From the IMG/VR virus record IMGVR_UViG_2579778802_000007, positions 1 to 31,026 of that record: a stretch of 31,026 bases of DNA. One strand, written 5' to 3'. The translations under genes and the position numbers were made by a program. This DNA comes from a virus. Lineage: Duplodnaviria > Heunggongvirae > Uroviricota > Caudoviricetes. Below are positions 13,708-23,957 of this stretch, one piece after another. Under the pieces are notes generated by a model that saw only the letters and a list, made by a program, of their open reading frames with translations, ran no database searches and was not told where the DNA came from. The stretch's first letter is position 1. Every line of letters begins with the position of its first letter.

Positions 13708-14610
13708 TTAGTAGTGATGCAGTGAAGGCGGCAACTCTTTGCTCTTAAGCCTTACCCATGCGGAAAGATTCGTTGGTCCATCTGGCTCATTAATATCAAC
13801 ATCTCGTGTGTGATTGATTAAAACGTCTCTCGCCATTCCAATAACATACGAGAACTCATGGCCGTAGTTGTAGCACCTGTCAGAATAGTTCGATTGAATT
13901 TGCTTTAGCGCCGGATACAGTTCGCGGAATAATGCCTGTGAGCGGTTGGCATAATCCCATAGCCATACAAGGCTGTTTGCTTCTTTTGCGGAAAGCTCGT
14001 TGGTTTTCTTCTCTTGTTTGCCAATGAACTCACCTTCAAGCACTACCCTGTGGATGTACTCTACGGCTTGCGGTATCTGAGATGCATCAAGCTCTTCAAT
14101 ACTTTCCACATTGAAACGCTGATGAATCATTGCATAAGCTTCTGGGTACATTAGATGCTTTTTGCTGACCAGCATATTTACAGCATCACGAAGCGGAGTC
14201 CTGTCATCAACAGATGTTTTCTTACGTGCATTTTCTGCCTTTCCCTTTGTCCAGTAGTCATGCAGCACAGTAAAGCATTCTTCCTGGTACTGAATCAGTT
14301 TATCGCGGATGTCAGCACGAACTTTCTCGGGGTTGATGCTGAACAGCCATCCATTTAACTTCTTCAAAGGAAGGCAGAGTAGCTTACGAAGCTTTCCATC
14401 AGCAGCAACCATATTCATATGAATACAGTTGAACTTATCTAGTTGTTTCATAAGTTTTTGTTGCTGAGTACCCCAGCTCATTCCGAGGTTTTCAACGATT
14501 GGCTTCATCGCAACATATGCAACTCCGGCAGCCATGGCGGTGATAATTTGCTGACCGTTGAATGGTACGTAAGAGGTGTTCACTGCTTCTAAAATTGCTA
14601 TACTATTCAT
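13708..14610 (-). CDS. Antirepressor-like protein (P22 Ant N-terminal-type domain)
   Basis: N-terminus '[22 protein letters not shown]...[21 protein letters not shown]' resembles antirepressor N-terminal domains. Sits downstream of the arc-like gene, as ant does in P22 immI. Start at ATG 14610 (GGAG upstream). Confidence 0.55.
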
Positions 14611-14672
14611 GTTGGTTTTTCTCCACGGATTTACTGACAACCGAAGCCCTGACTGTTCCCGCAGTTGGGGCT

Positions 14673-14876
14673 TCAACTTTCTGCTCTATCAGTTATATCT
14701 TTCCCTTCATATACTTCACCTATATTGCTAATGCTGGCAGAACATCCAAGATGCTTGTATCTTATGATGTCCAACACGCAGTCACTACACAGCATCCGAC
14801 CTGTTTCTTTAGAGTAAATGTATGTTTGATCAGCGTCTGATTCGCTAATGCCGCAGAAACAACATTCTTTACTCAT
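14673..14876 (-). CDS. Small Cys-rich protein (67 aa; CxxC...CxxC, zinc-ribbon-like), hypothetical
   Basis: ATG overlaps the arc-like stop (ATGA); purine-rich SD upstream; 'CCFCG...CSDCV' motif. Confidence 0.4.
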
Positions 14877-15025
14877 ACCATTACCCCCTCTCTCTTCAAG
14901 CTGTCTATCAGGCGCTTGATAACCTCTGAGTTAAACGACCTGCACTCTTCCTTTGCCCTGCTACCTATAGCATCCTTTAACGACTGCGGCATCCTTACCA
15001 AAATCTTACTTATTTCTTTCTCCAT
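14873..15025 (-). CDS. arc: Arc-like ribbon-helix-helix repressor
   Basis: 'MPQSLKDAIGSRAKEECRSFNSEVIKRLIDSLKREG' resembles P22 Arc ('...VRKVAEENGRSVNSEIYQRVMESFKKEG'). Start at ATG 15025 (GGAGGG 4 nt upstream); an alternative in-frame ATG lies at 15037. Confidence 0.7.
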   Translation of the reverse strand: MEKEISKILVRMPQSLKDAIGSRAKEECRSFNSEVIKRLIDSLKREGVMV

Positions 15026-15139
15026 GTTACCCTCCATACAAACAACTCTTTTCGAATACAAAAGATAGCAAAGCGAGTATATCTAGTCAAAATTTTTTTG
15101 CATACACTTTGCTATCAAATTGAATACCAAAGGTGTGAT
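15026..15139. promoter_or_regulatory. Divergent arc/mnt control region with 10-bp perfect inverted repeat GATAGCAAAG (15064-15073) / CTTTGCTATC (15107-15116)
   Basis: Inverted repeat seen in sequence; divergent RHH genes flank it as in the P22 Pant/Pmnt region. Confidence 0.45.
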
Positions 15140-15388
15140 ATGGCAAAGGGTGTGTCAATTTCTCCAACTACGGTAAGAATCCCTGAATCTTTACGCGAGG
15201 CTCTTGCTGTCAGAGCATCAAAAAATGGTCGCTCTGTTAACTCCGAGATCGTCATGATTTTGCAAGCCGCGATTGATGAAGATAGGTCGCCAAAGTCAGT
15301 TGAGTCATTTGCTCAGCAAGAAGCAGACAAATTCAAAGAGGCGCTGCTTGAGACGCTAAAGACCATGTATGGTAAGGATGAAAAATAA
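15140..15388 (+). CDS. mnt: Mnt-like ribbon-helix-helix repressor (83 aa)
   Basis: 'ESLREALAVRASKNGRSVNSEIVMILQAAIDE' resembles P22 Mnt ('...KLKFRAEANGRSMNSELLQIVQDAL'). Same length as P22 Mnt; SD AAGGTG upstream. Confidence 0.7.
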   Translation: MAKGVSISPTTVRIPESLREALAVRASKNGRSVNSEIVMILQAAIDEDRSPKSVESFAQQEADKFKEALLETLKTMYGKDEK

Positions 15389-15924
15389 TGCTGCACACAA
15401 TTCATTTCTTATGCCCCGTTAACACTGCCACTGTTGGGCAACTTCAGAACCACTGTCTCACCGCATTATCTCAAGGCGCAACTGAATTAAATATCCATAT
15501 ATCAAGTCAGGGAGGGGAAACTGCCGCTGGCTTTACTGCGTATAACTTTCTTAAGTCACTCCCTGTTACCGTTAGAACTCACAACATAAGCAATGTTGAA
15601 TCCATAGCTAATATCGTTTTCCTGGCTGGCTCAGAACGTTTCGCAAACCCATTATCAAGATTCCTGTTACATCCTCTATTATGGTGCTTTGCCTCCCCAG
15701 CCGCCGACCATGCCAGATTGAGAGAGTACGGGAAATGCCTCGATAACGATCTTGATCGCTTCGTTGAGACGTTCAATATCGACATCGGAACCCATATTAG
15801 GTGGGCATCCCTGATAGCAGACTCGACCATTTTGGATGCTAACAAGGCTCTTGAGCATGGCATAATTAATTCCATAAAAACTGCAAGGCTGGCATCCAAT
15901 CAGGCAAACTGGTGGGTTGTTTGA
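15388..15924 (+). CDS. ClpP/crotonase-fold serine peptidase-like protein (S14/S49-like), translationally coupled to mnt (TAATG overlap)
   Basis: 'ELNIHISSQGGETAAGFTAYNFLKSLPVTVRTHNISNVESIANIVFLAGSERFANPLSRFLLHP' parallels the ClpP core ('IYLYINSPGG...GQAASMGAFLL...RVMIHQP'), with candidate Ser and His at corresponding positions. Confidence 0.7.
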   Translation: MLHTIHFLCPVNTATVGQLQNHCLTALSQGATELNIHISSQGGETAAGFTAYNFLKSLPVTVRTHNISNVESIANIVFLAGSERFANPLSRFLLHPLLWCFASPAADHARLREYGKCLDNDLDRFVETFNIDIGTHIRWASLIADSTILDANKALEHGIINSIKTARLASNQANWWVV

Positions 15925-15980: not shown

Positions 15981-16679
15981 TTACTGCGAAAGTTTATTAA
16001 TGGAAAGGAAACCGCCAAAATTGCCGACATTCCTGCGCAGTTCACACCCGCGCATGCACTTGCTGCATCTGTCCTTACGGATATCCGTGGTGGGTTTATC
16101 GAACTCATCCGCCACAGCCCCGCCCGTGTAACCACACTCATCAGAGCGGTAGGTCCACATACAGGTGTTCGCCAGCATGATACGACCGGGAAACAGCGCC
16201 CCGTCCGTCTCGGTCGGTGTGGCCAGCACAAACGAGGCCGTCATGGCTGTCAGCTCCGACATCTGCTCCACCACCCAGCGGTCACTCAGCTCCTGCTCCG
16301 GGTCCGCCTCCGGATTGCCCGCAACGAAATTCACCGCATCCAGAAAACGGGCATACACCCGGCGGCGGACCACCGTGGCCCCCACCAGGCTCTGCAAATC
16401 CTCCGCCATTCCGGTGACAAGACCAAACAGATTGGACACCGTCAGCGACGGTCTGGCACTGCTGCCCTTCCCGCTCATCTCAAAACCGCTGCCGTCAATC
16501 GGGTATGCCTCATACTTACGCCCCTGCCAGGTGACCGGCTCCCCTTTTTCATTCAGCTCATTACAGAAAAAATACCGCTCACCGCCCTGTACCGTCAGGT
16601 CGATTTCCCAGAGTACCACCCGCGGTGACTGCTCTGATTTAACCGACTCGTTCAGACTTTCTTCGTGAATATCCTGCAT
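15981..16679 (-). CDS. L: Minor tail protein L
   Basis: Near-collinear identity with lambda gpL ('MQDIHEESLNE...WEIDLT..GGERYFFCNE.NEKGEPVTWQGR.Y'). Confidence 0.95.
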   Translation of the reverse strand: MQDIHEESLNESVKSEQSPRVVLWEIDLTVQGGERYFFCNELNEKGEPVTWQGRKYEAYPIDGSGFEMSGKGSSARPSLTVSNLFGLVTGMAEDLQSLVGATVVRRRVYARFLDAVNFVAGNPEADPEQELSDRWVVEQMSELTAMTASFVLATPTETDGALFPGRIMLANTCMWTYRSDECGYTGGAVADEFDKPTTDIRKDRCSKCMRGCELRRNVGNFGGFLSINKLSQ

Positions 16680-17008
16680 CAGTTCACCACCTGCTTAAAC
16701 TCCGCGCTGAACTCAACGCGCAACATCCCGACCCGCGCAGACCACCCGGCACAGGTCACCTTTATCTGCCGGTATGCATAGGGTGGCTTCCACAAAAATG
16801 CCTTCCAGCCACCGTGCTCTGCCAGAAACGCTTCCAGATGCCGGGCCTCCTCCCGGGTCACGGAAAGCATCACCCGGTATGTTTTCAGGTCAGCATTCAG
16901 CCCTGCCGCCATACGCTGTGAGTACCCGTCACCAAAACGCACTTCACGCACCGATGGCTGCGAGTTCACCTCCATATCCGGTTTCACTTTCCAGCGAAAG
17001 GTTTTCAT
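16679..17008 (-). CDS. M: Minor tail protein M
   Basis: Similarity to lambda gpM; overlaps the L start. Confidence 0.93.
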   Translation of the reverse strand: MKTFRWKVKPDMEVNSQPSVREVRFGDGYSQRMAAGLNADLKTYRVMLSVTREEARHLEAFLAEHGGWKAFLWKPPYAYRQIKVTCAGWSARVGMLRVEFSAEFKQVVN

Positions 17009-19579
17009 CGCCCGCTCCCCGATAACAGACCGCCATCACGCAACTGCAGCCGGAGCTCATCCTGCGCACCTTTACGGGCCATCTCATACACCGCTTTCAT
17101 CAGCTGCGGCCCGGCCTGTCCGTTGATGCCGTCGTTCTGAATCACCACGTGATTGTTCTGATTAAAATTAATCCCTTCCGCCCGCCGCATCTGCGCCGGA
17201 CTTCCGGCAGCACCCACATACCCCCCCTTCCGCATAGCCCCGCATCAGGCGGTACAGGTTCCCGACACCAATCCGGCTGGTTGCCTCCTTCGTGAAGACA
17301 AACTCCCCGCGGTGGACAATCCCCGCTGGCTCATATTTGCCACCGGTTCCCGTAAATCCCCCGGTCGCGAAATGGAAGTTCGCCGCCGCAGCCTGAATGG
17401 CCGTCCCCGTGGAAGCGGATGCGCCACCACCGAAAGCACCACCAATGGCGCTGCCGATACGCCCGACAATCCCCACCATCGCCTGCTTCAGAAAAATCTC
17501 TGTCAGCATGGAGAGCACGGAACGGGTGAAACCACGCCAGTTCTGTTCGCTGCCGGTCAGCATCGCTGCCATATTCTGTGCAATACCGTCAAAGGTCTGC
17601 GTGGCCGCGCTTTTAACCTGCGAAAAACTGTCCGTCGCACTTTCCGCCCACTCGCCCCAGCCGGACTTCAGACCCGCCATCCAGCTTCCACGAAGCTGCT
17701 CCTCCGCAGACCAGGTGTTCTTCAGTGCAGATGTGGTCTTCGCCAGCGCATCCGGATTATCACCGTACACGTCACGAAGGCGCTGCTCTTCCGACTCCCG
17801 CTGCGCCTGACGGTCGGTGAGGCCGCGGGCTTTTGCGCTGATGGCGGCCTGCTTCGCGCTCTGCTGCTGTTCAAACCGCGCCGCCTGCTGTGCCAGCTCA
17901 TTCAGCCGTTTCTGGTGTTCAACCTTGTCGCCCAGCTCAGCCAGCTGGCGTTTGTACTCCAGCGTCTCTTTCTCATGAGCCAGCAGGGATTTTTCCTGCT
18001 CAGATAACTGCCGTTTCGTGGCGGCCTCTTTCAGGACCACATACTGATTTTCCGCTTTCCATAAATCCCGGCGCTGCTGGCTGATTTTTTCATTCGCACC
18101 GGCATGCTTCTCCAGCGTCCTGAGCTCAGTTTCAAGCGCCAGCATGGCTGCATGCGCCCGGTCTTCCTGGCGCTCACCGGCAGACACCTTCACACCGGAC
18201 GGCTTTTTCTGCGTCGATTCATAATCCTTTTTTGCCGACGCCATCAGCGTGTTGTAATCCGCCTGCAGGATTTTTCCGTCTTTCAGGGCCTTATTCAGCT
18301 CTTCCTGCCGGGCGGTATATTTCTCCAGTGGCGTCAGCAGGCGCTCATACGCCTTCTGCGCCTCTCCGGTATACTTCAGCTGTGACGACTCACGCTCAGC
18401 CCTGTCCCTTGCCGCCAGTTCACCGGCTTTTTCCATATCCGACTGCAGCGTTGCCGCTGCCAGACCCAGACGGGCATTTTCCCGGTCATCCCATGCGCCC
18501 TGAAGGTTGGCCCGGAAAGAGGAGGTTTTACCGCGGCGCTGGCTCCGGCTCTGGTACCACTGCCATTTTTTATCCGCCTCATCAAATGCCTTCTGCGCAC
18601 TGGCGAGCATATCCGCTGAGGATTCCGGACGACCGATATCCAGAATGGCATCCCACATCGATTTGAATGCCTTCCCTGTTTTATCCGCCCAGGTCTCCAG
18701 TGTTCCCATGTTTTCTTTCAGGCGACGGGTCTGCTCATCAAAGCCTTTCGTGGCGATATCGTTCGCCGCCTGTAAGGCCCCGGCCTCGTCTCCGGAACGC
18801 TGCAGTTGTGCAACATACGCAATCTGCTCTGCCGTCACGTTACGGAACTGGCGCGCCATCGCCATCAGTCCCGACGTCGGGTCAGTGGTCAGCTTCCCGA
18901 AGGCTTCAGCGACTTTATCTACCTCCACACCGGATGCAGACGCAAAACGCGCGACACTCTGGTTAATGGCATCAAACTGTTCACCACCACGCACACCGGC
19001 ATTCACCAGGGCTGCCAGTGACTCTCTCGCCTGGTTAAACGTCAGCCCTGCTGCCTGCCCGGCTCTTGAGAGCGTCAGCATACGATCGGCAGTCAGTCCG
19101 GCCTGATTGCCGGAAAGGACCAGCGTTTTATTAAATTCTGAAAGCGTGGCGTCGCCCTGATACCAGGCGTACGCCAGCGCACCTGTCGCCACCGCCAGCG
19201 AGGTGACCCCGACCATCGGCAGGGTGATCGCACCGGCAAGCCCCCTGAACATGGGGATCATCCCGCCGAAGGAGTCCTTCACCTGACCGCCCTGTTGCAG
19301 CAGGATGAGCCAGGGATTCTGACCACCGGCAAGCTGCGTGGCGATATCCGTAAACTGTGCGGGCAGGGTACGCATGGCTGCTTTATACTGCCCGACGGAA
19401 ATCCCGGCTTTTTGTGCGGCCAGCGCCTGACGGTTCAGACTCTGCTCAACGGCACCGGCGGTTTTTCTGGCGTCGGTATCCAGTCCTGAAAAATGACGCC
19501 TTACCCGGCTCATCTGCTCATCGAAACGGGCCGCATCCAGACTCAGGTCAATAACAAGATCACCAACCGGCTGGGACAT
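17005..19579 (-). pseudogene. H: Tail tape measure protein H, reading frame broken by one extra base in a C7 homopolymer (plus strand 17221-17227); sequencing error, genuine frameshift or slippage site
   Basis: ORF 17168..19579 matches lambda gpH up to '...LYRLMRGYAEGG'. The remaining C-terminus ('YVGAAGSPAQ...NQNNHVVIQNDGINGQAGPQLMKAVYEMARKGAQDE...') is encoded in ORF 17005..17235, one base out of frame. Confidence 0.9.
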
Positions 19580-20431
19580 ATCTCACACCTCCGGAAATCC
19601 CCGCTGAAGCCATCATTAATGCAACATCATCCTCGCTGACATCCACCACATCTGCAGAAGGTGAAATATCGCCCCCTCCCTCCCCACCGAACCGGACGCC
19701 TCCGGCAAGTCCTGCCGCTTTCTGCATCAGCATGTCTTCCTCATCCGGCATCTCCGTCTGCGCTTCCTCTCGCCGGGGAGCCAGCAGACTGAAATCCGAG
19801 GGATGCATATCCGGATCGCAAAAAAACAGGCTGAGTACGGCGTACATCAGCCCGGAAAAATGCATATCCAGTTGGGTATCCTGAAAATAATGCGTGCGGT
19901 AAAAACGGTGCCAGTCGGCATATTCGGTGGATGTCATCCCGGCAAGCATGGCGCGCCAGTCGGGTCTCCCCATCTCACGCGCCAGTCTGAGGGCAAAGTT
20001 CAGCTCGCCGTCGAAGACTTTCCCGCAGAAAAATCATCATCAGTCAGCGTGTTATTTTTCGCCACTTCAGTAATATCAGTATCCGGACGAACAGCTTCGA
20101 TCATCCCGGACAGGCACAACACCACGTCTTCCGCCCGGGCAATGGCATCGGCAGGCCAGGTGGTGAGCACTTCCTGCTCTATCTTCATCACGGCCTCATT
20201 CATTGACGGTGACTGCGTTCTCTGTGGATGGTTATGCCACAGGGACATCGCCACCAGAAACGCGCCGGTTCTGACAAGATCTTCCACACTCACCTGCAGG
20301 TTGCCGCTGGCTTCAGCCTCTTCTGCCCGCCGTTTCAGCAGGGCAAGATGCTCGATACGCTGCAGCGCAGACAGCTCCGAAAGCGTGACAGACACACCGT
20401 TATATTCAAATTGTTCTGTTTTAAGAAACAT
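19560..20431 (-). CDS. GT: Tail assembly chaperone GT fusion, produced by programmed -1 frameshift at slippery heptamer GGGAAAG (plus strand 20018-20024)
   Basis: G GGA AAG heptamer near the 3' end of G, in the G zero frame. The T frame (ORF 19560..19973) is open across it and offset by -1. This is the conserved lambda G/GT arrangement. Confidence 0.8.
20000..20431 (-). CDS. G: Tail assembly chaperone G
   Basis: Similarity to lambda gpG ('MFLKTEQFEYNGVSVTLSELSALQRIEHLAL'). Start at ATG 20431 (AGGAG upstream). Confidence 0.93.
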   Translation of the reverse strand: MFLKTEQFEYNGVSVTLSELSALQRIEHLALLKRRAEEAEASGNLQVSVEDLVRTGAFLVAMSLWHNHPQRTQSPSMNEAVMKIEQEVLTTWPADAIARAEDVVLCLSGMIEAVRPDTDITEVAKNNTLTDDDFSAGKSSTAS

Positions 20432-20452
20432 GCGTGTTCTCCTAAACACCCG

Positions 20453-21199
20453 TTACGCGGCAGGGACATTAACGGTTACTGTCGCCAGAGCGACAAAATT
20501 ACCGTTATCACTCATGACCACGACCGACGTTGTTCCTTTCTCAAGTGCGTTTACCGTCACTGTGTTCTCCTTCAACGTGGCTGTGGCCACCGCACGATGC
20601 ACGGTCGACACCCTTAATGAAGGATCAGACGCATTATCCGGCAACACAGCCACAGTAAGTGTGCCTGCCTTCCCTTTTTCTAGGGTCAGGGTTTCCGGTT
20701 TAATGGTCACACCGGAAACCGGCGTAATTTTAGTGAGATTTTCCGCCATCGACGGGCGTCCCACATTGGTAACTTTCACCGTTCTGGTGATCACTTCCTT
20801 CGCCGTCACGGCCTTACCGATACTGCTGACCCAGCCACTGAACACATCCACCGTACCATTCGGGAACCGGATTTTATAGGCCCTGACATCCCCGCTTTCA
20901 AACCATGCGATAAGCCCTTTCTGACCTTCCTCACCCGGTTTCCAGGCCAGCGTAAAACTGGTATCACCTGCAGATTTCTGTCCCTGCCCGGTCGCGGTCC
21001 AGTCCGCGTCTTCATCATCCAGGTAGTTATCATCGTAGGGTTCAGCCGTCATCTCGCCCGGCGTCAGATCCTTCACCTTAGCCAGTCGCTGCCAGTCATC
21101 GTCTGACAACGGGTTTGCATAAGCATCACCCTTGCCGTTGTAAACCCACAGAGTGGTACCGGCACCTTTTACCGGCTCAAGGGGATTTGGTGTTGCCAT
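20453..21199 (-). CDS. V: Major tail protein V (with C-terminal Ig-like domain)
   Basis: Similarity to lambda gpV. Confidence 0.95.
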
Positions 21200-21206
21200 A
21201 TCGTCC

Positions 21207-21602
21207 TCACATCTCGTATGTAATGGAATAAGTCAGATCTGCAGAACTCCATAACGCCATATCGTCATCACGACGATACTCATAGCCCTGCGTAACCATC
21301 GTGGTAATCAGTCCTGCCAGTGCCGGGATCGCGGTCATCGCCGGGTAAATCCGGCTTTCCATCCACTGATCAAGCTCTGAATCCGGTACCTGTGCCGGTA
21401 AAAACACCTCAATATGCAGCGTGGCCCGCCATGTATCTGCATCCAGCTCTTCACCGGTATACTCTGCATCCGTCAGATAAACCGCGATCGCAGGAAAATC
21501 CTCTTCGTCAAAAACAACGGGGCGACCATCAAACAGCGTCGCCCCGTGTTCATGCTGCTCGAGTGCATCCAGCACTGCGGCACGAATGTCAGTGTGTTTC
21601 AT
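21207..21602 (-). CDS. U: Tail terminator protein U
   Basis: Similarity to lambda gpU. Confidence 0.93.
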
Positions 21603-22132
21603 CGTTTTATTGCAATCCTCAGTTGTTGTTTCAGCGCGTATGCCAGTTCTTTAGGCAGGCGTTCACGCCGGATACGGTCAACATTCTCATCAAATGCCTG
21701 TTTCAGTGGGGCCGCCATCGGGATTTTCACCACATCAATGGGGTAACGGTTTTTCCCGGCCACACGCTGCATGACATGCCAGCGACCATTTTTTAATCGC
21801 TGAATAAATGCCCGCTGATACCGATGCTGACCGGCTTTAAGTATGCTGTTCGGGCGACGCCCCAGCATCCTGATCCCCAGCTTAATCACAGGGAGATCAC
21901 CGCGGTTAACGATAATTCTGGCATTCGGATTTCTGACCGTCGCCCGTTTCAGTCTGGACCGTTCCTTTACCAGTTTCCGTCTCACCCTGGTTTCCCGGGC
22001 AACCTGTGACGAAGACTGATTAATCGCCGTTGTGGCCACGCGGTTAATCGTCATTGCTGAAGCCGCCGGAATGGCGTTTTTACGAACCCGGCTCAGATTA
22101 TCAATCGCCTGATCAAGCCCTTTTATCGCCAT
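21599..22132 (-). CDS. Z: Tail completion protein Z
   Basis: Similarity to lambda gpZ; overlaps the U start. Confidence 0.9.
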   Translation of the reverse strand: MAIKGLDQAIDNLSRVRKNAIPAASAMTINRVATTAINQSSSQVARETRVRRKLVKERSRLKRATVRNPNARIIVNRGDLPVIKLGIRMLGRRPNSILKAGQHRYQRAFIQRLKNGRWHVMQRVAGKNRYPIDVVKIPMAAPLKQAFDENVDRIRRERLPKELAYALKQQLRIAIKR

Positions 22133-22147
22133 AATTTTACCCTGCGT

Positions 22148-22501
22148 TTATCGTCGCCGGTTAACAGCGGGTGGTTGCCCACGGTTGAGCCAGAGATAAC
22201 AGCTTCCCCCGTCATCCGGAGAAACACGATCCACCCAGAACATCTCGCCGTTAATGGTCAGCGTGTCACCACGCCGCACGGCACGCACCGTATCCGTCCG
22301 CACAAATAATGACGGGCTGCTTCCTTCAATACGGACCCCGCCACCGGCAAAACCCAGCGACTCCGGATCGTCAAAAACCCCCTGAACTTCGCCGCCACGT
22401 TGTGCTCCGGAGGTGAACTGCGCACGGATCCCCATCACTTCAACGATCGTACTGTCCACCCCGGCGAGGGCAGCATCAAAGGCATTCTGAAAATCACGCA
22501 T
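22148..22501 (-). CDS. FII: Head-tail connector protein FII
   Basis: Similarity to lambda gpFII ('GVFDDPE...GSSPSLFVRTD.VR.LRRGDTLTI....FWVDRVSPDDGGSC.LWL.RG.PPAVNRRR'). Confidence 0.95.
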   Translation of the reverse strand: MRDFQNAFDAALAGVDSTIVEVMGIRAQFTSGAQRGGEVQGVFDDPESLGFAGGGVRIEGSSPSLFVRTDTVRAVRRGDTLTINGEMFWVDRVSPDDGGSCYLWLNRGQPPAVNRRR

Positions 22502-22877
22502 ATTCAGCCGTTCCGTGCTGTATCATGGCCGTTGCCAGTGATGATGGCACCAGAACACGCATACCCCGTAACGCCAGCTCAACGGGACGACCTGTCTCCG
22601 GGCAATACCCCATTACTTGCAGGCACTTCCGTACCCGGACGGCTTTAACATCATCCGGAGCATCCGTGTTGTTCAACTGCTCACCATCGTCTGTGTGATT
22701 TTGATCAGCCCCGCTCTCATCAGAGTGCATAATGCCCTCCGGGGAAACAGCAAGCTCCTCTTCCCACTCAGACACACGTTGAGCAATATCCGCAGCACTC
22801 CCCGACATATCCGCCTCGCGCCCCAGCAGGCCAGCCAGTTGACGAAGACGATTCAGATTTTCTTCTTTTGTTGCCAT
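22494..22877 (-). CDS. FI: DNA packaging / head assembly protein FI
   Basis: Position between E and FII, acidic composition. Start at ATG 22877 (AGGAGG upstream). Weak sequence similarity to lambda FI. Confidence 0.75.
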   Translation of the reverse strand: MATKEENLNRLRQLAGLLGREADMSGSAADIAQRVSEWEEELAVSPEGIMHSDESGADQNHTDDGEQLNNTDAPDDVKAVRVRKCLQVMGYCPETGRPVELALRGMRVLVPSSLATAMIQHGTAEYA

Positions 22878-22928
22878 CTCAGCCTCCTGTGAAAAAAGAC
22901 ACGGGGGCATTTCGCCCCCGCTCACGGA

Positions 22929-23957
22929 TTATTTCACCTGCACCACCACAAACTCATCCGGATCCGGCAGCACCATCAGCGGTGCGGACTGCGTCATGGT
23001 GAATTCACGGGCCGGATCGCCCACAGTCAGCCAGTGTTTCGGATAACGGGAAGAGGCCACCACACCTTCGGACAACGCCTGCGCATCCTGAATGGCACCA
23101 TAGCAACGAATGCCCTCTGCTGCCGTATTCCCCAGGACCAGTGTGCCCTCCGGCAGATAACGTTTTTCGGTACCGTCCTCTGCCACATAAGACGTTTTCG
23201 CCACCACAATGGCCAGATCGCCGTAATACCCCTTGAAGGACACCACCGCCCCCAGGTCTTTCACTGCCGTTTCGAGTTGTGAATTTGAGCCGCGACGGGT
23301 ATCCAGTTTTTCGCGGAACAGCTTAAAGCCATTCAGCAGACGCCAGACCGTACCGTCCATAATGGCGATATTCACAAGGCCGCTGGCCTGATCGCAGTAG
23401 AGGTCAATATCATGCGTCGGATCAAACGTATCACGGTCCTGCTCAGACCATTTTTTACCGTCAGCCTGCTCAATGTTATTTCCTTCAGAGCGCCCGAAAT
23501 CCACCTCGACAGTATCAAACTGATCCCCTTCCATGGTGTATTTGCCATACAGCACGGCATTCACCGCCTGCATTTCTTCCACCTGGACAATGGCGTGCTC
23601 TTCCTGTTTGAGGTTATCGGTAATGATACGCAGACGACGGTAGGCCGGGTCGTTCAGCTGAGCCGGATCTTCACCAGGAAGGCGCTCAACCGCCTGCTGG
23701 TAATTAAATTCGTGTTTGGGCTTGACGTAGCCCGGACGTAACACGCGGGTTTCACCACCGCGATGGCGAAGCACTTTTCCTTCAACAACCGGGGAGACAT
23801 AGGCTGCCACCGGCGTTTTTCCGGTAATTTTGTCCAGCATCACCTCTTCGGTGTGGAAATTCACCGTACGGCGGAAAAACAGCTCCAGAAACAGCGCACG
23901 GAATTTCACTTTTTGTTCGGTATAACCGAGTAACTGGCGGGTCGTAAACAATCCCAT
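22929..23957 (-). CDS. E: Major capsid protein E
   Basis: Collinear similarity to lambda gpE ('PGYVKPKHE.N.Q...RLP.EDP..L.DPAYRR.RII', 'KLDTRRGSNS.LETAVKDLG'). Confidence 0.97.
   Translation of the reverse strand: MGLFTTRQLLGYTEQKVKFRALFLELFFRRTVNFHTEEVMLDKITGKTPVAAYVSPVVEGKVLRHRGGETRVLRPGYVKPKHEFNYQQAVERLPGEDPAQLNDPAYRRLRIITDNLKQEEHAIVQVEEMQAVNAVLYGKYTMEGDQFDTVEVDFGRSEGNNIEQADGKKWSEQDRDTFDPTHDIDLYCDQASGLVNIAIMDGTVWRLLNGFKLFREKLDTRRGSNSQLETAVKDLGAVVSFKGYYGDLAIVVAKTSYVAEDGTEKRYLPEGTLVLGNTAAEGIRCYGAIQDAQALSEGVVASSRYPKHWLTVGDPAREFTMTQSAPLMVLPDPDEFVVVQVK

What the first reader, a model, noticed from the sequence alone, without database searches (positions are those of the whole stretch)
17005..17240. 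Tape measure gene H split by a single-base frame change in a C7 tract
The lambda-like H protein is encoded in two ORFs that join at a seven-C homopolymer (plus strand 17221-17227); removing one C restores a full-length lambda-like C-terminus. This is a sequencing or assembly error, an inactivating mutation that would make the prophage tail-defective, or a slippage-prone tract.
Basis: seen in the sequence. Interest (0 to 1): 0.45.

Follow-up and report, generated by a model that had tools for sequence, protein, structure and literature searches.

The report
One-base frameshift in prophage tape-measure gene
A lambda-like prophage in a draft E. coli genome has one extra G in a run of six inside its tail tape-measure gene; this cuts off the protein's tail-tip anchor and most likely leaves an ordinary, recently disabled (tail-less) prophage rather than a new mechanism.

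Summary
Window 17221-17227 is C7 (G7 on the coding minus strand). It splits a lambda-type tape-measure gene H into an 803-aa ORF (17168-19579) and a 70/76-aa C-terminal ORF (17005-17235). Deleting one G gives an 857-aa protein that exists, residue for residue, in other E. coli.

The window is the whole contig JJLI01000131.1 of E. coli 1-176-05_S4. The same 803-aa product is deposited under three accessions on three contigs; the names shown are colonies C1 and C3. That makes a random sequencing error unlikely.

In 5,426 complete E. coli genomes the same context is G6 at 380 places, and never G5 or G7. Most relatives write the two glycines as GGT GGT and lambda uses GGC GGT, so the run is not conserved. 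I found no stimulatory RNA structure and no Rfam match. All 21 other morphogenesis genes compared are intact.

The lost residues 787-857 include the helix that in lambda sits in the gpI tripod of the tail tip.

Best reading: a recent slipped-strand +1G mutation that inactivates H. This is ordinary and of low interest. A residual possibility is rescue by reversion, low-level recoding or a co-resident prophage.

The parts
17221..17227 (-). G7 homopolymer (C7 on the plus strand). Wild type is G6, encoding Gly785-Gly786 as GGG GGG. This is the site of the +1 nt insertion.
   Evidence: Alignments to SCU-106, S1-KEN-03-A, UPEC-245U and L149 show a single-base gap here and nowhere else.
17168..19579 (-). 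Truncated tape-measure ORF (H N-part): 786 native residues plus 17 out-of-frame residues, 803 aa in total.
   Evidence: Pfam TMP_2 (2e-69) and Tape_meas_lam_C (8e-21). The first altered residue is 787. The exact protein is deposited as EZJ25284.1, EZJ71638.1 and KDT57873.1.
17168..17170 (-). Premature stop codon (TAA) reached in the shifted frame.
17005..17235 (-). Orphaned H C-terminal ORF. It is 76 aa from the ATG at 17235, or 70 aa from the GTG at 17217 as gene callers chose. It carries the residues equivalent to lambda gpH 783-853, including the tail-tip coiled-coil helix.
   Evidence: The lambda structure papers are PMC10721106 and PMC12617516.
16679..17008 (-). Gene M (distal tail protein). 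It is intact and its start overlaps the normal H stop by 4 nt.
   Evidence: 100% identity to the L039 M protein.
19560..20431 (-). Tail assembly chaperone genes G and T, with the canonical G-T slippery heptamer GGGAAAG at 20018-20024. This is the known programmed frameshift of this gene module, and it is intact.
   Evidence: The G-T frameshift is described in PMC5009743.

Best explanation
This is a genuine, recent +1G insertion of the kind made by slipped-strand mispairing during DNA replication. It lies in a lineage-specific G6 run of the tape-measure gene H of a lambda-like prophage in E. coli 1-176-05_S4. Translation leaves the H frame after Gly786, reads 17 wrong codons and stops. The product keeps the ruler and the gpH*-like body. 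It loses residues 787-857, which correspond to lambda gpH 783-853. In lambda, residues 818-842/849 of that segment form a three-helix coiled coil held by the gpI tripod inside the tail tip. Inference: without this anchor the tape measure cannot join the J/I/L/K initiator, gpV cannot polymerise around it, and induction should give DNA-filled heads without tails (a classic H-minus defective prophage). Infectious particles would then need a G7->G6 revertant or an H protein supplied by a co-resident lambdoid prophage. Shown here: the frameshift, its uniqueness, its presence in sibling isolates, the intact natural ancestor allele, and the intact state of all other morphogenesis genes compared. Inferred: the assembly defect and the mutational mechanism.
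For: The tract and the two ORFs are as described. The restored 857-aa protein exists exactly in other E. coli (P0031, 10 contigs). L149 (GCA_027979845.1) is 99.947% identical to window 15981-23579: 3 SNPs plus this one gap. The identical 803-aa frameshift product occurs in three NCBI proteins on three contigs, from isolates named 1-176-05_S4_C1 and _C3. The sibling contig L044 has G7 with 0 gaps and 4 SNPs over 6.6 kb, but different downstream gene content. There are no other isolated coding indels in the window, and the 21 other morphogenesis proteins each match in a single frame (19 over their full length), so the assembly is not generally indel-prone. In complete RefSeq E. coli the same context is G6 at 380 places in 346 genomes, with G7 at 0 and G5 at 0. 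This is what purifying selection for full-length H would produce. G7 is also absent from the GTDB representatives, IMG/VR and JGI metagenomes, while G6 occurs in 37 IMG/VR contigs. The lost segment maps onto the gpI-bound helix of lambda gpH. In phage TP901-1, deleting the C-terminal 30 aa of the TMP abolishes plaques and leaves only heads (PMC5099701).
Against: No reads were available, so the G7 call itself is unverified. The three isolates come from one project, so a shared technical artefact is conceivable. The prophage shows no other decay, so the event is very recent or harmless. The same +1 frame is seen in two other lineages: the NCTC assembly L050 (G7) and two identical metagenome contigs L049/L055 (G7 plus T>G). 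This could mean the allele persists and is therefore tolerated. Two deposited plaque-forming phages (PhiR12_2_star with G5; PhiR5_1) also show a split H, although those records look error-prone at homopolymers. The window and its sibling contig differ in the L-K region, so a collapsed or chimeric assembly of two co-resident prophages cannot be excluded.
Confidence: 0.62

Rival explanations
1. Sequencing or assembly artefact: the true sequence is G6 and H is intact.
For: It is a single-base length change in a homopolymer, the classic error class. No identical G7 context exists in any large collection searched. The rest of the prophage is perfectly intact, and the restored protein is 100% identical to a natural one. 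Many other public assemblies show G4, G5 or G8-like lengths at this tract, mostly in visibly error-laden long-read assemblies. The deposited PhiR phage records also differ at homopolymers. The window and sibling contigs may be collapsed repeats.
Against: The same frameshift product was obtained on three contigs under three protein accessions from this strain set (names shown: colonies C1 and C3). It is also present on a sibling contig that differs by 4 SNPs and in flanking genes. The window has about 45 other homopolymers of 6 or more, and no other frame-breaking indel against 99.9%-identical relatives. The change is an insertion in a 6-mer, which is not a typical short-read consensus error (established knowledge; the sequencing platform is not confirmed here).
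Confidence: 0.18
2. The mutation is real but tolerated, and enough functional H is still made. Possible routes are low-level +1 ribosomal slippage on GGG GGG G, loss of a G during transcription, or independent translation of the 70-aa C-fragment from the GTG at 17217, which follows the Shine-Dalgarno-like AAGGGGGGG. Only about 3-6 TMP copies are needed per virion. The tract might then behave as a reversible on/off switch.
For: The +1 frame recurs in at least three lineages from different kinds of assembly: the window/L044 isolate drafts, the NCTC draft L050 and the metagenome contigs L049/L055. The C-terminal ORF is undamaged and preceded by an SD-like G run with a GTG start that gene callers accept. 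Lambda gpH is naturally cleaved into gpH* and gpHC, and only three C-terminal helices are retained per tail (PMC12617516). Plaque-forming phages are deposited with a split H.
Against: The run is not conserved. Among 80 IMG/VR relatives, 69 use GGT GGT and 5 use G6; lambda uses GGC GGT. G6 is invariant at 380 of 380 places in complete genomes. No downstream structure stands out (z = -1.47, with 15 of 200 shuffles folding as well), and there is no Rfam element. The codon after the run (GUA) is not a known pause site, and E. coli RNA polymerase slips mainly on long A/T runs (established knowledge). Cleavage of gpH occurs after tail assembly, so covalent linkage is probably needed during assembly. 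The PhiR records carry a frameshift in the essential J gene and an A7/A8 discrepancy, so their split H is probably a sequencing error.
Confidence: 0.08

Closest known systems
Bacteriophage lambda gpH (tail length tape-measure protein; processed to gpH* and gpHC)
   Same: The restored protein is collinear with gpH and 78% identical (857 vs 853 aa). It has the same Pfam domains and the same gene order V-G-T-H-M-L-K-I-J. Its C-terminal helix region is almost identical to lambda 818-849.
   Different: Here the gene is interrupted by +1 nt at the Gly-Gly codons, which are GGG GGG rather than lambda's GGC GGT. The encoded product therefore lacks the last 71 residues.
Frameshifted genes in defective or decaying lambdoid prophages of E. 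coli (homopolymer slipped-strand indels)
   Same: It is a single-base gain in a short G/C run that creates a premature stop in an essential morphogenesis gene, while everything else remains intact.
   Different: No further decay is visible, and an intact allele that encodes the identical protein apart from the shift still circulates. This is therefore at the very earliest stage, or not yet fixed.
The programmed -1 frameshift between tail chaperone genes G and T (G GGA AAG)
   Same: It lies in the same operon, just upstream, and it also produces two products from overlapping frames.
   Different: The G-T site is conserved across long-tailed phages and is present and intact here at 20018-20024. 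The H tract is not conserved, needs a +1 shift, and has no recognised stimulator.
Homopolymer contingency (phase-variable) loci, such as poly-G tracts in Neisseria and Haemophilus
   Same: A G run in a coding region whose length change toggles the reading frame. Lengths from G4 to G8 are seen in public assemblies.
   Different: The tract is short (6-7). It is invariant at G6 in 380 high-quality copies. Most of the length variants come from error-laden assemblies.

Membership tests
Lambda-type tail tape-measure protein (gpH family) | TMP_2 (PF06791) and Tape_meas_lam_C (PF09718) domains | tested here: met
   2e-69 and 8.4e-21 on the 803-aa ORF.
Lambda-type tail tape-measure protein (gpH family) | Full-length collinearity with lambda gpH, including the C-terminal tip-binding helix, in one reading frame | tested here: not met
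   It is collinear at 78% identity only after deleting one G. As written, residues 787-857 are in another frame.
Lambda-type tail tape-measure protein (gpH family) | Position between the chaperone genes G/T and the tip genes M, L, K, I, J | tested here: met
Programmed ribosomal frameshift or transcriptional slippage site | Slippery sequence conserved among homologues | tested here: not met
   Among 80 IMG/VR relatives: GGTGGT 69, GGGGGG 5, GGGGGT 3, GGCGGT 3. Lambda has GGCGGT.
Programmed ribosomal frameshift or transcriptional slippage site | The out-of-frame arrangement is the normal, widespread state of the gene | tested here: not met
   G6 (in frame) at 380 of 380 places in complete genomes; G7 at 0 and G5 at 0.
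Programmed ribosomal frameshift or transcriptional slippage site | A stimulatory element (downstream structure, a suitably spaced upstream SD, or a pause codon) | tested here: inconclusive
   The fold z-score is -1.47 and there is no Rfam match. The G run is itself SD-like, but it is not followed by a known shift-prone codon plus pause codon (read from the sequence).
Programmed ribosomal frameshift or transcriptional slippage site | Full-length product actually made from the shifted gene | not testable with these tools
   Needs a reporter assay or proteomics.
Phase-variable homopolymer contingency locus | Tract length polymorphic among closely related, reliably sequenced strains | tested here: not met
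   Invariant G6 in RefSeq complete genomes. The variants occur mostly in low-quality assemblies.
Frameshift pseudogene in a prophage | The ORF is interrupted relative to intact orthologues by an indel whose length is not a multiple of 3 | tested here: met
Frameshift pseudogene in a prophage | The indel is reproducible in independent sequencing of the strain | tested here: inconclusive
   The same 803-aa product is seen in three assemblies of sibling isolates. No raw reads or Sanger data were available.

The most novel reading that the evidence does not exclude
The G6/G7 run in H is a naturally recurrent, reversible switch, or the G7 allele is leaky. Because a virion needs only a handful of tape-measure molecules, rare +1 slippage on GGG GGG G, or separate translation of the 70-aa tip-anchor peptide from the SD-like G run plus GTG, could still give infectious tails. 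A 'broken' H would then be a tolerated or regulatory state of some lambdoid prophages.
Probability: 0.07. Interest if true: 0.5.

Novelty: already known. Interest (0 to 1): 0.15.

Why it matters
The main value is for annotation. H in this contig should be flagged as a frameshifted pseudogene, and the prophage predicted to be tail-defective unless reads show otherwise. The analysis also marks one G run in a common clade of lambdoid tape-measure genes as a place where public assemblies, including deposited phage genomes, often disagree in length. Anyone scoring prophage intactness or comparing TMP alleles should treat this tract with care. That includes work on ManYZ dependence or on TMP-targeting defences such as SNIPE (PMC13190303). 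If the allele proved to be tolerated, it would bear on two open questions: whether gpH must be covalently continuous with its C-terminal fragment during assembly, and why gpH is cleaved at all.

Tried and rejected
1. IS insertion. I suspected the 2.3-kb insert between K and L was an IS element, which would be further evidence of decay. Pfam shows a P22 immI-like module instead (antirepressor, Arc/Mnt-like, ClpP-like), so it is a moron and not damage.

2. Exact-pattern scans for the G7 context in GTDB genomes, IMG/VR and JGI metagenomes found nothing. A 41-nt megablast in complete E. coli genomes also found nothing. The G6 control worked.

3. I searched for the paper describing the PhiR phages (Brenes & Laub 2025). 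It is not held, so the meaning of '_star' and the sequencing method remain unknown.

4. I tested whether the plaque-forming phages with a split H prove tolerance. PhiR12_2_star and PhiR12_2 have no mismatch over the first ~28 kb but differ by A8 vs A7. PhiR12_2 also has the essential J gene split at GGGGG vs GGGTGG. I therefore regard these records as unreliable at homopolymers.

5. I looked for the donor of the PhiR12_2_star H segment in complete genomes. The best match was 99.6% and carried G6; no ECOR12 match appeared.

6. A protein search with the out-of-frame tail peptide returned only 5 noisy fragments.

7. An RNA fold and an Rfam scan for a recoding signal found nothing significant.

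8. A look-up of the ClpP-like moron protein, meant to test whether the sibling assembly also holds the moron, was uninformative. The protein is in about 7,900 index blocks.

Full report
**Observation**

The plus strand of the window reads ...ACATACCCCCCCTTCCG..., with seven C at 17221-17227. This is the only C or G homopolymer of 7 or more in the 31,026 bases.

The genes here lie on the minus strand. An 803-codon ORF runs 19579->17168. It carries the Pfam domains TMP_2 (2e-69) and Tape_meas_lam_C (8e-21) of lambda-type tape-measure proteins. After ...LMRGYAEGG it reads VCGCCRKSGADAAGGRD and stops.

The +1 frame holds MRKGGYVGAAGSPAQMRRAEGINFNQNNHVVIQNDGINGQAGPQLMKAVYEMARKGAQDELRLQLRDGGLLSGSGR* (17235->17005), which is the lambda-like C-terminus.

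Deleting one G gives an 857-aa protein that is collinear with lambda gpH (853 aa) and 78% identical. The first altered residue is 787, which corresponds to lambda 783. The finding's coordinates and description are therefore confirmed.

**Context**

The window is entirely a lambda-like prophage. Its gene order is Nu1-A-W-B-C-D-E-FI-FII-Z-U-V-G-T-H-M-L-[insert]-K-I-J-lom-stf-tfa.

I ran tblastn with 22 proteins of an intact relative (S1-KEN-03-A, locus L039). Every protein aligns as a single tblastn segment in one frame, full length for 19 (K from residue 6; Rz cut by the contig end), except H. H splits into residues 1-791 in frame -3 and residues 784-857 in frame -1.

The canonical G-T slippery heptamer GGGAAAG is intact at 20018-20024.

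The 2.3-kb insert between L and K is not an IS element. It is a P22 immI-like module with an antirepressor, Arc/Mnt-like repressors and a ClpP-like protein.

**Source**

An exact-protein look-up shows that the window is the complete contig JJLI01000131.1 of assembly GCA_000627135.1.

The identical 803-aa frameshift product is deposited three times (EZJ25284.1, EZJ71638.1, KDT57873.1), on three contigs. The source names given are E. coli 1-176-05_S4_C1 and _C3. The naming scheme is subject-sample-colony; compare 1-176-05_S3_C2 in PMC10434276.

One sibling contig (L044, JJLQ01000045.1) matches window 15981-22579 with 4 mismatches and no gap, so it also has G7. Beyond gene L it continues directly into a 93%-identical K, without the insert.

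**Is G7 real?**

Three lines of evidence argue that it is real:
- The same allele was recovered on three contigs under three accessions from this strain set, in two sequence contexts.
- The window shows no other isolated coding indel against relatives that are 98-99.95% identical, despite about 45 other homopolymers of 6 or more. The assembly is therefore not generally indel-prone.
- The change is an insertion in a 6-mer.

Four points argue against:
- No reads could be inspected.
- All the isolates come from one project.
- The two contexts might reflect two nearly identical co-resident prophages that were collapsed or joined arbitrarily.
- This tract is visibly troublesome in public data.

On that last point, I fetched places where the 70-aa C-fragment is called as its own gene. 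Aligning them showed the following run lengths:

| Run | Loci |
|---|---|
| G7 | NCTC draft L050, about 96% identical to the window |
| G7 with the adjacent T changed to G (same +1 frame) | two mutually identical metagenome contigs, L049 and L055; 98-99% identical to the window |
| G5 | L048, L053 |
| G4 | L047 |
| other nearby indels | L046, L051, L054 |

Several of these assemblies have many frameshifts (19-76 gaps in 2.4 kb) and are evidently error-laden.

I put the probability of a pure artefact at about 0.18.

**How unusual is the allele?**

I used a 41-nt query in which every 28-mer spans the run.

| Run length | Complete RefSeq E. coli (5,426 genomes) |
|---|---|
| G7 | no match |
| G6 | 380 places in 346 genomes |
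| G5 | no match |

A 26-mer containing G7 is absent from 185,579 GTDB species representatives, from IMG/VR and from JGI metagenomes. The G6 25-mer hits 37 IMG/VR contigs.

The restored 857-aa protein exists exactly in other E. coli (P0031; EPJ0426860.1, MDA6408306.1; 10 contigs). Locus L149 (GCA_027979845.1) differs from window 15981-23579 by 3 SNPs plus this single base, which is 99.947% identity.

The frameshift therefore sits on an otherwise current, intact allele. It is either very recent or an error.

**Is the tract a designed slippery site?**

The evidence says no.
- The two glycine codons are GGT GGT in 69 of the 80 best IMG/VR relatives, GGGGGG in 5, GGGGGT in 3 and GGCGGT in 3.
- Lambda itself has GGC GGT, and PhiR5_1 has GGT GGT.
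- The 141-nt RNA around the site folds no better than shuffles (z = -1.47; 15 of 200 shuffles fold as well).
- No Rfam family matches within 16500-20500.
- The in-frame state is universal in high-quality genomes.

The only feature that could help rescue is that GAAGGGGGGG is Shine-Dalgarno-like and is followed, after UAU, by the GUG at 17217. Gene callers use that GUG as the start of the 70-aa fragment.

**Consequence for the protein**

In lambda, gpH is cleaved after tail assembly into gpH* and a fragment of about 14 kDa, gpHC. Residues 818-849 of gpH are seen bound to gpI (134-222) and gpL in the tail tip (PMC12617516). Residues 818-842 form a three-helix coiled coil that rests on a gpI tripod and terminates the rod in the tip lumen (PMC10721106).

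The alignment places this helix (here GPQLMKAVYEMARKGAQDELRLQLRDGG) wholly downstream of the frameshift.

In phage TP901-1, deleting the C-terminal 30 residues of the TMP abolishes plaques and lysogenisation, and only heads are seen (PMC5099701).

I therefore infer that the 803-aa product cannot dock in the tip initiator and that the prophage is tail-defective. This step is an inference and is not shown here.

Possible escape routes are:
- G7->G6 reversion;
- an H protein supplied by another lambdoid prophage, since E. coli genomes that match this H segment have a median of 2 and up to 8 such places;
- low-level recoding.

**The lead that did not hold**

Two deposited plaque-forming phages, named like the temperate-phage panel of Brenes & Laub cited in PMC13190303, also have H annotated as two CDS. 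PhiR12_2_star is 99.3% identical to the window here and has G5 at this very tract. PhiR5_1 has a 1-nt deletion about 120 nt upstream. If accurate, these records would argue that a split H is tolerated.

However, PhiR12_2_star and PhiR12_2 have no mismatch over the first ~28 kb yet differ by A8 vs A7. PhiR12_2 also has the essential receptor-binding gene J split at GGGGG, where the star phage has GGGTGG. Frameshifts in essential genes of viable phages, located at homopolymers, point to sequencing errors. I give this lead little weight. The describing paper could not be read.

**Verdict**

| Reading | Probability |
|---|---|
| Genuine, recent slipped-strand +1G mutation that inactivates the tape-measure gene of an otherwise intact prophage | about 0.62 |
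| Assembly or sequencing artefact | about 0.18 |
| Tolerated or recoded allele | about 0.08 |

The first two readings are ordinary. Interest is low (0.15), and the kind of feature is already known.

Noticed in passing
window 13708-15924: A 2.3-kb module lies between tail genes L and K. It holds a P22-type antirepressor (13708-14676, minus strand), small Arc-like ORFs, an Arc/Mnt-like repressor (15098-15388, plus strand) and a ClpP-like protein (15388-15924, plus strand). The same ClpP-like protein sits in the immI region of many P22-like prophages, next to tailspike and gp16 genes. The sibling contig L044 and the 99.9%-identical relatives L148/L149 lack this module.
   Followed up: partly
L042 (PV340551 PhiR12_2_star) 3243-3291; L043 (PV340545 PhiR5_1) about 3345; L147 (PV340550 PhiR12_2) about 43048: Deposited genomes of plaque-forming ECOR-derived phages carry frameshifts in essential tail genes at G-rich runs. 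H has G5 in PhiR12_2_star. H has a 1-nt deletion in PhiR5_1. J is split at GGGGG vs GGGTGG in PhiR12_2. There is also an A7/A8 difference between two genomes that have no mismatch over the first ~28 kb. These are probably homopolymer sequencing errors in the records. If they are real, they would be remarkable.
   Followed up: partly
L046-L055 (public assemblies), tract equivalent to window 17221-17227: The same run appears as G4, G5, G6, G7 and G8-like in different public assemblies. In 380 copies in complete RefSeq genomes it is always G6. The tract is a hotspot for assembly disagreement and perhaps also for real slippage. Two identical metagenome contigs (ERZ27278462, ERZ27246678) have G7 plus an adjacent T>G change, the signature expected from transient misalignment.
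   Followed up: partly
window 15981-22579 vs L044 (JJLQ01000045.1): Sibling-isolate contigs share a 6.6-kb V-to-L block with 4 SNPs and the same G7, then diverge (insert present or absent; K and I only 93% identical). Either two related prophages carry the same H allele through recombination or co-residence, or the short-read assemblies joined a repeat differently.
   Followed up: no
window 17218-17229 (minus strand): The RNA reads AAGGGGGGGUAU. From memory, the E. coli prfB +1 frameshift site has AGGGGGUAU as its SD-like element and spacer. Here it is not followed by the CUU UGA shift and pause codons, so I treat the resemblance as coincidental.
   Followed up: no
window 1-3500: The left end matches prophage-end genes in many E. 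coli: an integrase Arm-binding-domain protein, a SAM methyltransferase, a Rha regulator, a DUF4376 protein, an ash-family protein and tail fibre assembly. Only one complete genome (EC15) covers all 3.5 kb. The integrase annotation names only an Arm DNA-binding domain, so the integrase may be incomplete.
   Followed up: no
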